DNA of 64,000 nt from Escherichia coli (GCF_003790525.1 NZ_CP033635.1); one strand, 5' to 3'; positions 47,701 to 50,700 are shown, numbered from the stretch's first letter. Program-made: the numbers.

Positions 47701-50700
47701 GATGAGCCACATGGACGTAACTCAGTGCAGGCAGCGTATATCCATAAAGCGGAGCATCTGGATGAGCGCAAGCTGATGCTGCAGTGGTGGGCAGATTTTC
47801 TGGATGCCAATCGGGAGAGAGCGATTACGCCGTTTGACTATGCGAAGATCAATCGGGGTAATGGAGAGTGAGTTGTTTATCAAATTTGCTAAATTAAAAC
47901 TATTTAACCTGCCTTATAGGGACGATTGGTTGGCTATTTCACTAGAAGTAATGTAGATAACAGAAGCCTGGTCTATCATTTTGATAGACCAGGTCAAGAT
48001 TAATAGAATTAGATTTTTTATTGGCGTGTTGAATAAATTTTAAAGGGTCCTAATAAGTTTGTAGGATTTAATTGAAAACAGTAAGGGAAATACTTAACAT
48101 ATAACTTCACGCTCTTCTATTAAATCAAAAACATTATTCGTAGTGTAATGTTCCCATCTTTTATTATATCCCTCTTTCGACAAAATTGAGACATCATCCG
48201 TTCCTTCTCCCTCATCTAAACCATGCATGAAACAAACTCCAGCAACATTAGAAAGAACATATCTATTATGCAGACATTCATTACCCTCGCGAGAAGTTAA
48301 AGACTTAAATGTTACTGATAATTTAAAATCGTCTGGAAAGACAAGGTTTTCGCGGTTCAACTTATTAGCCAAATAATTCACCGTTGGGGAGTTTTCTTTA
48401 CTCCCATCAAATATAACATCTATCTTTAAATTTTTTTTATAAGAGTTATTAGCACTAACGCTAAGTAATGAAATAAATACATTCCACCATCTTTGTTTGT
48501 CACTAAAGTATGGGTCAACTATAATAATATGCTCTGATGTTTTTAATAAGCGTGAGATTATAGATATCATATCCTCAGCAATTCTAGCAACAATTTTTTG
48601 CCGAGCATAATTTAACCCAAAGAAATCATCTATATTAGTTACATCAAGGTTATCACAAGGAGTAGAACTCACTACATGATCAAATTGTTCAATTCGATTT
48701 ACAGCAGAGATGTTATCTGACCATGACATGTCACCAACATAATCATAAACCCTACTAACCTTATTATTTTTCAAAAAAATAATAAGGTCCTCTAATCGTT
48801 TTTTTTGAAGTTCACTATGATTAGCATTTAATAGCCCAAGCAATTGTTTTTTATTTCTCTTCAGCTTTGGTAATTCACTATAGAGAAAGTTACCGCCCGT
48901 AGAAAATCCTTTTATGAAGTCACGATAATTTCTCCGATCAATTGCGATCTCAAACAAAGCCTCTGGTGAAATGGCGCATTCGTAGAACATTAAAAAAGCT
49001 CTCCCCTTCTTTCTTCGAAGAAACCTTTGGGCCATTTTTGTTTGAAGTCACCATCATCAGTAATATCTATTTTCCTAGTAACAGTCGAACCATTATTATC
49101 CTCGAAAACGATCACTGATATAAAATCAGGTTTTACTGGGTAATTTGATTCAGGTAATTCATTGTCCGTTGTTTGTCTAATTCTTTTTAAAATTCGAAGC
49201 AAAATGTGCTCACTATGTGTTTCGACTAAAAACATAGGTCTTTTAACATCAAGGGGATATTGGGTAAACAGATCACCTACAGCGAGTTGTAAAGCGGGAT
49301 GAATATGTAGCTCAGGCTGCTCTATAGCAATTAATCCATCCTGAACTATATTGGCTGCAATAATAAGAGGTGCTATCTGAGTTAATCCGACACCGACTTG
49401 ATTTGGAAATAACATTTGGCTTGAATCTATTTTACAGAAGTAAACATTATCTTTCAGACCTAAAAGTTGAGGGGAGGTTTTTATATCAAATTCTCCTCCA
49501 CTAAATATATTATAATTAGTGTTTAGTTTATCTCTATTGGAAAACCAATCACTTACTTTTTTAATCAAATCACTATCATTTTGTTGAGATAAACACAGCT
49601 TATCCCATGCTGATGTACCATCAAACCATCCATTTTGTTCTGGATAAGGATTTGGCGTAAATGAAGAATCAGGTATAATTCTTAACGGTCCAATAGATAC
49701 GCTAGCCTTTAAATAATTATTTAATTTATCTAACGGAGAAGTAAAAACTTGCGTTAGCACTCTGGTGATTATATCTCGATTAAAATACTCAACTGGCTCG
49801 GATATATCAAAAACTTTCAAATTTGTATCAACAGTTCTTCCCAGTTGAGGTAACGCACCAATTTTCGTCTTTAAAAAAACAGGAAACATTGGTTTTTCTT
49901 TATCTTCTTCAAATATATAATCAACAGTTTTTACTCGCTCTGTTGCACCACTTTTATTACGTTCTAAGCCAGGAATTAAGTCATTTAAAGATATTTCAAA
50001 TTCACTGGCAATCGTATCTAATCCTTCCTTATCAATAGATTCAAGCCATAAATTATAATCAATAGGAAGAAGCAACGGATGAGTAAAGTTCAATCTATTT
50101 ACTAAAGATGATTTAGTATACTCATCATTACTTAGCTCTCCAATAAATTCATTATTTATAGAAACAGCATAGTTCTTTATATATGCTGCTCTGTGCAATT
50201 GTGACCATGCGATTTTAAACTCTACATAAACCTTTTCAGTTTCATCTGCAATGTCTTTCATTTTTATAAAATGAATATCGAAAATATCACCAAGTTCTTC
50301 TAAATATGTTTTATATTCTACACCTATTGTTTGTTCAGGATCGAAACCGATACCAATAGTAATTACATTATTCAGATCCCCATTATGGACTAGAGATCTA
50401 AATCCATCTATGCGCCTGTTCCCCATAGCTTCTAAATATATAGGATCACACTGCTCACGGTCTAATATTTGTTGAAGATAAAATAATGCAATTAAAATAG
50501 TAGTCTTGCCCGCGCTGTTTGGCCCCAATAGTAATGTTACAGGTGCAAAATCAATTTCCTGCCGCTCTCTAACAGATCTGAAATTTTCAAGTACAAGTTT
50601 AGTTAATTTCATAATGAACCTTACATGAAATATTTATTCGATAGGTTTGATGCTAAAAGTTGAAGTTGCATTGCGCTTTTATCATAAATGCTTAGTCCTT

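What the first reader, a model, noticed from the sequence alone, without database searches (positions are those of the whole stretch)
47967..47993. Perfect 12-bp hairpin downstream of the hsd-linked operon
cctggtctatca-ttt-tgatagaccagg is a strong inverted repeat with no U-tract, so it is not a clear intrinsic terminator; it may be a protein-binding or recombination site near the module junction.
Basis: seen in the sequence. Interest (0 to 1): 0.3.

Follow-up and report, generated by a model that had tools for sequence, protein, structure and literature searches.

The report
Gene-end RNA hairpin between converging genes
The perfect 12-bp hairpin is real and its pairing has been kept through evolution, but it looks like an ordinary transcript-end stem-loop between a phage-type integrase gene and a restriction/defence operon that run towards each other, not a recombination or protein-binding site.

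Summary
CCTGGTCTATCA-TTT-TGATAGACCAGG lies at 47967-47993, is unique in the window, and about 0.017 such hairpins are expected by chance per 64 kb.

It lies 100 nt after the stop of the last gene of a minus-strand operon (hsdR-hsdM-hsdS, an AAA_15 ATPase, a 298-aa protein). It lies 95 nt after the stop of a plus-strand P4-type integrase fragment. In Kosakonia, Citrobacter, Enterobacter and metagenome relatives the integrase is intact, so the hairpin originally sat between two convergent transcription units.

Eleven sequence variants keep the stem: 92-95% of cells are paired, and 5 of 12 pairs changed on both sides. The flanks drift.

It is single-copy in E. coli and found only at this locus. 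It has no plasmid, phage or Rfam match. Homology breakpoints between alternative cargo modules do not fall on it.

Neither strand has a conserved canonical U-tract. The operon-sense tail CUUCUGUU is weak, and C exceeds G downstream.

Best reading: a 3'-end-defining or protective stem-loop, or a leaky, Rho-assisted or collision-type terminator. Low interest; a new member of a known kind.

A promoter-like site overlapping the right arm keeps a small operator or antisense-RNA possibility open.

The parts
47967..47993 (.). The hairpin: 12-bp perfect arms (47967-47978 and 47982-47993) with a 3-nt loop. It folds in transcripts of either strand.
   Evidence: Pairing is conserved in 11 variants.
47955..47966 (-). 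Operon-sense tail right after the stem, CUUCUGUUAUCU. It is an interrupted, weak U-rich tract, and TGTTATCTACA is invariant in all relatives.
47872..47966 (.). Conserved spacer between the integrase stop and the hairpin (79-91% identity to relatives, as high as the coding sequence). In operon sense its first 50 nt have C14/G5, which is rut-like.
47994..48093 (-). 3' untranslated stretch of the operon, from the stop codon to the hairpin. It evolves fast (30-84% identity) and has C20/G6.
47687..47871 (+). C-terminal fragment (pseudogene) of a P4-type tyrosine integrase. It is intact (422 aa) and convergent with the operon in relatives.
48094..48990 (-). Last gene of the operon: a 298-aa protein of an unnamed family whose C-terminal half has a phospholipase-D/Nuc-like fold (NsnC-like effector).
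48990..50612 (-). AAA_15 ATPase (NsnB / PDC-M55A / AriA-like).
50621..56874 (-). Type I restriction-modification genes: hsdS (50621-51763), hsdM (51760-53394) and hsdR (53458-56874).
47981..48009 (+). Sigma-70 promoter-like site, TTGATA-17 nt-TAGAAT, whose -35 lies in the loop and right arm. It would fire antisense into the operon's 3' end. It may not be functional.
   Evidence: The -10 TAnAAT is kept in 8 of 10 aligned variants.

Best explanation
The hairpin most likely works as RNA, as a gene-end stem-loop placed between two transcription units that run towards each other. One unit is the minus-strand hsdR-hsdM-hsdS-ATPase-nuclease operon. The other is, ancestrally, the plus-strand P4-type integrase gene.

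Because the arms are a perfect palindrome, the stem forms at the 3' end of both transcripts. Its most likely roles are to fix and protect the mRNA 3' end against 3'-5' exonucleases and to limit read-through into the opposing gene.

Termination itself is probably only partly intrinsic, given the weak CUUCUGUU tail in operon sense. It is probably completed by Rho (C-rich, G-poor RNA flanks the stem in operon sense) or by polymerase collision at the convergent junction.

Shown: the position, the stability, the conservation of pairing with two-sided changes, and the lack of a canonical U-tract. Inferred: that the selected molecule is RNA, which strand matters more (I favour the operon strand), and the Rho or collision contribution.
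For: - Position: 100 nt after the operon's last stop and 95 nt after the integrase stop. The same roughly 230-nt convergent gap, with the hairpin in the middle, occurs in Kosakonia, Citrobacter koseri, Enterobacter and metagenome loci that have an intact integrase next to tRNA-Leu.
- Structure is conserved although sequence is not. Hairpin identity to relatives is 64-89%, yet 92.4% (operon sense) and 94.7% (integrase sense) of cells pair. Five of 12 pairs have changes on both sides. In both senses no shuffle in 500 reached the observed pairing or covariation score, and sliding the partner by 1-3 columns drops pairing to 20-45%.
- Internal control: a 14-bp perfect palindrome inside the last gene (48758-48788) decays without compensation in the same relatives.
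- The two hairpin variants with uncompensated mismatches (L003, L022) come from loci where the operon's last two genes are frameshifted.
- Fit to published classes: Rho-dependent transcripts end at stable stem-loops that lack U-tracts, with C>G downstream (PMC6061677). Here the 50 nt after the stem are C14/G5 and the 100 nt before it C20/G6. Bidirectional terminators at convergent pairs do not resemble intrinsic terminators, and they need a stem-loop to position collisions (bioRxiv 10.1101/2022.10.23.513370).
- Parallel cases: the window's intact integrase (28940-30154) is followed 42 nt later by another perfect 12-bp, 3-nt-loop hairpin with a weak tail. In locus L011 a different 10-bp hairpin follows the same integrase fragment.
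Against: - There are no transcript data, so neither 3' ends nor termination has been shown.
- There is no canonical U-tract. Tail scores are 1.9-2.9 in operon sense and 1.6-2.4 in integrase sense, near the roughly 2.1 I estimated by hand for random sequence with 25% U, and far below the 5.45 of a canonical tail in this window.
- G-U versus A-C counts do not say which strand is selected: 3 wobble cells in operon sense against 6 in integrase sense.
- Salmonella relatives of the operon (76% protein identity) lack the hairpin and have no terminator-like site after the same gene, so the operon can do without it.
- The two-sided changes could come from template switching between the arms of a quasi-palindrome rather than from selection. 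Variant L017 carries such a signature: the loop is flipped and the right flank is converted to the complement of the left flank.
- The sequences are related and few (11), so the shuffle controls overstate significance.
- The inner 6 bp (CTATCA/TGATAG) hardly vary, which a DNA-binding site would also predict.
Confidence: 0.6

Rival explanations
1. It is a DNA-level operator. A dimeric protein binds the 27-bp palindrome and controls the promoter-like site TTGATA-17-TAGAAT (47981-48009, plus strand), whose -35 lies in the loop and right arm. That promoter would drive an antisense RNA into the 3' end of the nuclease-effector gene.
For: The promoter-like site matches 10 of 12 consensus positions. 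The -10 keeps T-A-n-A-A-T in 8 of 10 aligned variants while its surroundings vary. The inner half-sites CTATCA/TGATAG are nearly invariant. The half-sites TCTATCA/TGATAGA resemble tetO half-sites (from memory, not tested).
Against: Outer stem positions change on both sides and keep only complementarity, which is unusual for a sequence-specific operator. No regulator gene is adjacent in the ancestral layout, where an integrase lies on one side and the operon's last gene (the 298-aa nuclease-like protein) on the other. AT-rich acquired DNA is full of promoter-like hexamers: 13 were found against 9.5 expected in the 3 kb scanned. Other blocks of the same spacer are equally conserved. The spacing is 3 nt against 1 nt in tetO.
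Confidence: 0.08
2. It is a canonical Rho-independent terminator of the hsd-defence operon alone. The hairpin plus CUUCUGUU releases RNA polymerase by itself.
For: It is flagged by the terminator scan on the minus strand. The stem is stable at -19.6 kcal/mol. It sits at the right place, 100 nt after the last stop codon.
Against: The tail is interrupted and scores 2.87 against 5.45 for a canonical tail. Relatives have only 2-5 U in the first 8 nt, and L017 has GCAAGUGU directly after the 12-bp stem. The scan's criterion is loose: 5 sites found against 1.8 expected.
Confidence: 0.15
3. It has no function. It is a palindrome that persists and re-perfects itself through template-switch replication errors between its arms and hitch-hikes with the island.
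For: L017 shows a flipped loop, and its right flank has been converted to the complement of its left flank. Nearly all E. coli copies are identical because the island is recent and clonal: 251 of 257 are at least 99% identical. The Salmonella operons lack it.
Against: It is kept across at least four genera while the adjacent 100-nt spacer falls to 30-84% identity. A comparable palindrome inside the neighbouring gene decays in the same lineages. Other integrase gene ends carry unrelated hairpins at the same kind of position.
Confidence: 0.12
4. It is a recombination or transfer site: an att- or attC-like site for cargo exchange next to the integrase, or an orphan origin of transfer (hairpin plus the conserved TGTTATCTACA as a nick region).
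For: It lies at a junction between an integrase and a swappable cargo; L011 carries a NotI-like R-M system in place of hsd. The hairpin is followed 5-7 nt later by an invariant 11-mer.
Against: Breakpoints fall at the integrase stop codon, not at the hairpin. It is single-copy with no second site. There is no similarity to any of 72,556 plasmids or 50,697 phages at E<=1. The att site of P4-type integrases lies at the tRNA, on the 5' side of int (general knowledge).
Confidence: 0.03

Closest known systems
[quoted passage not shown]
   Same: A stable stem-loop after a gene end with no uridine-rich tail and with C>G in the downstream sequence. The stem and loop sizes and the folding energy are like those of intrinsic terminators.
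   Different: Rho dependence and the actual RNA 3' end are untested here. C>G is also found upstream of the stem. The arms are perfectly palindromic and serve a convergent pair.
Bidirectional terminators between convergent gene pairs (Ju et al. 2019, as cited in Wang et al. 2022, bioRxiv 10.1101/2022.10.23.513370)
   Same: One stem-loop lies between two genes that face each other, it does not look like an intrinsic terminator, and it forms in both transcripts.
   Different: In this window one partner, the integrase, is only a 185-nt promoterless fragment. Collisions can therefore apply only to the ancestral layout seen in other genera. No SEnd-seq data exist for this island.
Canonical intrinsic (Rho-independent) terminator
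   Same: A hairpin with 50% G+C in its stem (6 of 12 pairs are G-C) downstream of a stop codon, and a somewhat U-rich tail in operon sense (5 of 8).
   Different: The U-tract is interrupted and not conserved, and there is no A-tract partner. The tail score is about half that of a true terminator in the same window (24471-24508).
REP/BIME extragenic palindromes
   Same: An extragenic palindrome in a 3' UTR at a convergent junction, possibly stabilising mRNA.
   Different: It is single-copy, has no sequence similarity to REP, and is confined to one island.

Membership tests
Canonical intrinsic terminator | Stable G+C-containing stem-loop just downstream of a coding region | tested here: met
   12 bp with 6 G-C pairs; -19.6 kcal/mol; 100 nt after the stop codon
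Canonical intrinsic terminator | Uninterrupted U-rich tract (about 7-8 nt) directly after the stem | tested here: not met
   Operon sense is CUUCUGUU with a score of 2.87, against 5.45 for a canonical tail. Integrase sense is CAAGAUUA (the plus-strand stem takes up the preceding U in a G-U pair). Relatives have 2-5 U of 8 in operon sense and 1-3 in integrase sense.
Canonical intrinsic terminator | Factor-independent release of RNA polymerase at the site | not testable with these tools
   Needs in vitro transcription or Term-seq
Protective 3' stem-loop of Rho-dependent transcripts | Stable stem-loop without a U-rich tail at the transcript end | tested here: met
   for the structural part; the transcript end itself is unmapped
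Protective 3' stem-loop of Rho-dependent transcripts | Cytosine-over-guanosine bias downstream (rut-like) | tested here: met
   C14/G5 in the 50 nt after the stem in operon sense. In integrase sense the 100 nt after the stem are G-rich (C6/G20, the complement), so this holds for the operon strand only.
Protective 3' stem-loop of Rho-dependent transcripts | Read-through on Rho inhibition; trimming by PNPase or RNase II back to the stem | not testable with these tools
   Needs bicyclomycin treatment and exonuclease-mutant RNA 3'-end mapping
Bidirectional terminator of a convergent pair | Lies between two convergently transcribed genes | tested here: met
   Met in relatives with an intact integrase. 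In the window the integrase is a fragment.
Bidirectional terminator of a convergent pair | Stem-loop forms in both transcripts | tested here: met
   -19.6 and -21.2 kcal/mol; 92.4% and 94.7% of cells paired across variants
Bidirectional terminator of a convergent pair | Overlapping 3' ends of the two transcripts at the stem | not testable with these tools
   Needs SEnd-seq or Term-seq
Dispersed palindromic repeat (REP/BIME, MITE ends) | Many copies per genome | tested here: not met
   One locus per genome, in 257 of 5426 E. coli genomes; the two 'places' per genome are the two strands of the same site. Unique in the window.
Site-specific recombination site (att, attC, dif) | Coincides with the boundary of exchanged or integrated DNA | tested here: not met
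   Homology to alternative cargo and to other integrases ends at about window 47875, the integrase stop. An ISEcp1 unit inserted at 47951/2, not in the hairpin.
Site-specific recombination site (att, attC, dif) | A partner site elsewhere, or recurrence at other junctions | tested here: not met
Operator for a dimeric DNA-binding protein | Half-site sequence, not just symmetry, conserved | tested here: inconclusive
   The inner 6 bp are nearly invariant; the outer 6 bp vary, five of them with two-sided changes
Operator for a dimeric DNA-binding protein | Overlaps a promoter and has a cognate regulator nearby | tested here: inconclusive
   It overlaps the -35 of a promoter-like site. No regulator gene adjoins it in the ancestral layout.
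Origin of transfer | Similarity to a known plasmid or ICE oriT, or a nearby relaxase | tested here: not met
   No hit in 72,556 plasmids at E<=1; no relaxase in the neighbourhood
Any curated RNA family (Rfam 15) | Score at or above the family's gathering threshold | tested here: not met
   Best hit 26.4 bits against a threshold of 88, E=1.5

The most novel reading that the evidence does not exclude
The palindrome doubles as a control element of a conserved antisense promoter. That promoter is TTGATA-17-TAnAAT at 47981-48009 on the plus strand, with its -35 inside the loop and right arm. Its RNA would run into the 3' end of the PLD-nuclease effector gene and tune or neutralise a potentially toxic defence effector. 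Hairpin formation or a bound protein would gate that promoter.
Probability: 0.06. Interest if true: 0.45.

Novelty: new member of a known kind. Interest (0 to 1): 0.12.

Why it matters
It matters little by itself. It helps annotation by marking the 3' boundary of a type I R-M operon that carries a Menshen-like ATPase-nuclease pair. It also shows that in this island the integrase and the defence operon were originally convergent and insulated by one shared stem-loop. It is a clean small example of a gene-end hairpin without a U-tract that is conserved by covariation. That class is thought to mark Rho-dependent or collision-type termination, so it would be a convenient test piece for those models. 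The neighbouring gene pair is probably the more interesting object.

Tried and rejected
- Repeated element: searches in the window and in 5426 E. coli genomes at E<=10 found only this one locus.
- Known RNA family: Rfam in E-value mode gave only chance-level hits.
- Plasmid oriT or phage element: no BLAST hit at E<=1.
- Hairpin tied to the last operon gene: rejected. Salmonella loci with the same operon lack it.
- Hairpin tied to the integrase 3' end in general: rejected. Thousands of E. coli integrase homologues match only up to the stop codon, and L011 has a different hairpin.
- Small ORF 47804-47956 (+, 50 aa) ending 11 nt before the hairpin: rejected, because relatives have frame-breaking 1-nt indels in it.
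- Strand assignment from G-U versus A-C counts: inconclusive, 3 against 6 cells.
- GTDB genome scan for the 298-aa protein: only one extra locus.
- tetO resemblance (TCTATCA/TGATAGA half-sites): treated as coincidence, because the spacing is wrong and no TetR gene is present.
- The 14-bp palindrome inside the last gene: a by-product of the peptide LIIFLKNNK, not conserved as a structure.

Full report
**1. Observation**

The sequence at 47967-47993 reads cctggtctatca-ttt-tgatagaccagg. That is twelve perfect pairs around a 3-nt loop, as reported.
- The 27-mer is unique in the window, with 0 matches in 100 shuffles. Single arms with up to 2 mismatches are no more frequent than chance.
- In 60 simulated 64-kb sequences with the window's dinucleotide statistics, perfect hairpins with arms of at least 12 bp and loops of 3-8 nt averaged 0.017 per sequence. 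The window holds four such sites.
- As RNA it folds at -19.6 kcal/mol on the minus strand and -21.2 on the plus strand, with z-scores of -6.0 and -7.3.

**2. Context**

The window is an E. coli chromosomal island. On the minus strand an operon runs towards the hairpin:
- hsdR (53458-56874), hsdM (51760-53394) and hsdS (50621-51763);
- an AAA_15 ATPase (48990-50612);
- a 298-aa protein (48094-48990).

The hairpin begins 100 nt after that last stop codon. On the plus strand, a 185-nt C-terminal fragment of a P4-type tyrosine integrase ends at 47871, 95 nt before the hairpin.

Relatives of the 298-aa protein were traced to Kosakonia cowanii, Citrobacter koseri, Enterobacter and several metagenome contigs. 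They carry the same operon facing an intact 422-aa integrase that sits next to tRNA-Leu(CAA). The convergent gap is about 230 nt and the hairpin lies in the middle. So the hairpin originally lay between two convergent transcription units. In the window one of them has been truncated.

**3. It is not a repeat, a known RNA or a plasmid or phage element**

- In 5426 complete E. coli genomes the palindrome occurs only at this locus, in 257 genomes, almost always identical.
- There is no hit in the plasmid or phage collections at E<=1.
- No Rfam family comes near its threshold.

**4. Which module does it belong to?**

- Salmonella loci with the same operon (76% protein identity) but different neighbours have no homologue of the hairpin and no terminator-like site.
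- E. coli locus L011 has the same integrase fragment followed by a NotI-like R-M system. Homology to the window stops at the integrase stop codon (about 47875), and an unrelated 10-bp hairpin follows 40 nt later.
- In Salmonella L008, homology to the integrase also begins exactly at its stop codon.
- In strain 98193 an ISEcp1-blaCTX-M-15 unit is inserted at 47951/2, 16 nt from the hairpin.

None of these breakpoints falls in the hairpin. This argues against a recombination site.

**5. Conservation of structure**

Fourteen distinct flanking sequences gave 11 gap-free hairpin variants.

Sequence identity of the hairpin to the window is only 64-89%. For comparison:
- the spacer towards the operon is 30-84% identical;
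- the spacer towards the integrase is 79-91% identical;
- the genes are 80-99% identical.

Yet 92.4% of pair cells are standard pairs in operon sense and 94.7% in integrase sense.
- Five of 12 pairs carry changes on both sides, for example T:A to G:C at position 3, T:A to A:T at position 6, and C:G through U-G to U:A at position 2.
- In both senses no shuffle in 500 reaches the observed pairing or covariation score.
- Sliding the partner by 1-3 columns drops pairing to 20-45%.

A 14-bp perfect palindrome inside the last gene (48758-48788) serves as a control. It decays without compensation in the same relatives.

The two variants with uncompensated mismatches (L003, L022) come from loci where the last two genes are frameshifted. 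This is anecdotal, because the two lineages are related.

Caveats:
- The sequences are few and related.
- L017 shows a flipped loop, and its right flank has been converted to the complement of its left flank. This is a template-switch signature, so part of the 'compensation' may be mutational rather than selected.

**6. Terminator features**

The loose scan flags the site on the minus strand with the tail CTTCTGTTAT. I recalled a decay-weighted tail score of the TransTermHP type from memory and implemented it. It gives:
- 2.87 for the window's operon-sense tail;
- 1.87-2.73 for the same tail in relatives;
- 1.6-2.4 for the integrase-sense tails;
- 5.45 for the tail of a canonical terminator in this window (24471-24508);
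- 7.15 as the maximum.

By my hand estimate, random sequence with 25% U would score about 2.1. So neither strand has a conserved canonical U-tract.

In operon sense the RNA around the stem is C-rich and G-poor: C20/G6 in the 100 nt before the stem and C14/G5 in the 50 nt after it.

**7. Mechanism**

Two published classes fit.
- Dar and Sorek mapped the 3' ends of Rho-dependent E. coli transcripts to stable stem-loops with reduced uridine content, followed by C-over-G bias. They gave evidence that these stems protect against PNPase and RNase II (PMC6061677).
- Wang et al., summarising Ju et al. 2019, describe bidirectional terminators between convergent genes. These do not resemble intrinsic terminators, and a stem-loop in them positions polymerase collisions (bioRxiv 10.1101/2022.10.23.513370).

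The hairpin here has the anatomy of both. I therefore rate a transcript-end stem-loop as most likely (0.6). Its probable roles are 3'-end definition and protection, and insulation of the two converging units. Intrinsic termination would be weak, with help from Rho and/or collision.

It probably matters mainly for the operon strand, for three reasons:
- only that strand has the U-rich and C>G features;
- the hairpin is kept in E. coli lineages where the integrase is dead (L002 type);
- it decays where the operon's last genes are dead.

The same window offers a parallel. Its intact integrase (28940-30154) is followed 42 nt later by another perfect 12-bp, 3-nt-loop hairpin with a weak tail.

**8. 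Rivals**

- Pure intrinsic terminator (0.15): weakened by the tail analysis.
- Functionless self-perpetuating palindrome (0.12): weakened by cross-genus retention and by the internal control.
- Operator of a promoter-like site (0.08): the site is TTGATA-17-TAGAAT at 47981-48009 on the plus strand, and its -10 pattern TAnAAT is kept in 8 of 10 variants. It cannot be excluded. It is weakened by the two-sided changes in the outer stem, by the absence of a nearby regulator, and by the abundance of promoter-like hexamers in AT-rich DNA.
- Recombination or oriT site (0.03): largely refuted by sections 3 and 4.

**9. Novelty and verdict**

This is an ordinary kind of feature, a gene-end stem-loop at a convergent junction, in a previously undescribed instance. 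Interest is low (0.12).

The most novel reading not excluded is a palindrome-gated antisense promoter aimed at the nuclease effector gene (probability about 0.06).

**10. Side finding**

The 298-aa protein belongs to a wide unnamed family: 777 cluster representatives at E<=1e-3, with no Pfam or PDB sequence match.
- A confident model (pLDDT 96.5) has a C-terminal half with a phospholipase-D/Nuc fold, matching Nuc 1byr and the SauUSI nuclease 7clg.
- The protein weakly hits NsnC, and its ATPase partner hits NsnB.
- Together they look like a Menshen-type NsnB-NsnC pair without NsnA, placed behind hsdS in a type I R-M operon (compare PMC12065111).

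Noticed in passing
window 48094-50612 (minus strand): The two genes behind hsdS look like a Menshen-type NsnB-NsnC pair without NsnA. 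The 540-aa AAA_15 ATPase hits NsnB, PDC-M55A and AriA. The 298-aa partner has no Pfam or PDB sequence match, belongs to a wide unnamed family (777 cluster representatives), and its confident model has a PLD/Nuc-like C-terminal half with the conserved motif LHNRY. Possibly the type I R-M complex replaces the missing NsnA sensor.
   Followed up: partly
window 47981-48009 (plus strand): A promoter-like site, TTGATA-17-TAGAAT, overlaps the hairpin's loop and right arm. The -10 pattern TAnAAT is kept in 8 of 10 variants from other genera. It would give an antisense RNA into the 3' end of the nuclease-like gene. A small TCCTA...TAGGA stem followed by TTTAATT lies about 35 nt downstream of the putative start.
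   Followed up: partly
window 47872-47966: The 95-nt spacer between the integrase stop and the hairpin is as conserved as coding sequence (79-91%), whereas the spacer on the operon side is not (30-84%). TGTTATCTACA and AAATAGCC are invariant. No conserved ORF; the reason is unknown (rut site, integrase 3' UTR element?).
   Followed up: partly
window 30196-30222: A second perfect 12-bp, 3-nt-loop hairpin (TCCCTCTGATCT-gta-AGATCAGAGGGA) lies 42 nt after the stop of the intact P4-type integrase 28940-30154 next to tRNA-Phe. It again has only a weak U-rich tail (TTCCGTTAAC).
   Followed up: partly
window 30385-30416: A 32-bp perfect palindrome (TCAGCTTCCACCCGTG/CACGGGTGGAAGCTGA) inside the HTH-coding part of a LacI-family regulator gene (30304-31314).
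   Followed up: no
window 48758-48788: A 14-bp perfect AT-rich inverted repeat inside the 298-aa gene. It encodes LIIFLKNNK and decays without compensation in relatives, so it is a by-product of the peptide.
   Followed up: yes
L010 (E. coli 98193, NZ_CP173591), equivalent to window 47951/47952: An ISEcp1-blaCTX-M-15 transposition unit is inserted 16 nt from the hairpin with a 5-bp duplication, AGTAA. It is a chromosomal ESBL insertion in this intergenic spacer.
   Followed up: partly
L011 (E. coli STEC434, NZ_CP129383) 5233-5320: The same tia-integrase-fragment junction carries a NotI-family R-M system instead of the hsd operon. Homology switches at the integrase stop codon, and a different 10-bp hairpin (GACCAACCAG...CTGGTTGGTC) follows. 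The place right after this integrase is a cargo-swap point.
   Followed up: partly
L017 (metagenome contig SRR26994796_8294) about 4130-4190: A hairpin variant whose loop is flipped (TTT in operon sense) and whose right flank is converted to the complement of its left flank, extending the palindrome to 17 bp. This is a template-switch signature. About 150 nt are also inserted between the gene stop and the hairpin.
   Followed up: partly
window 42664-46306 (minus strand): A WYL/HTH regulator (45410-46306) lies next to two genes that hit the PADLOC candidate defence families PDC-M09A (44282-45361) and PDC-M40B (42664-44235). One of them is annotated as 'ATP--cob(I)alamin adenosyltransferase' in RefSeq. 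Probably another defence module in the same island.
   Followed up: no
L003 (E. coli M22546) and L022: Hairpin variants with uncompensated mismatches occur in loci where the ATPase or the 298-aa gene is frameshifted. The decay of the hairpin and of the genes may be linked.
   Followed up: partly
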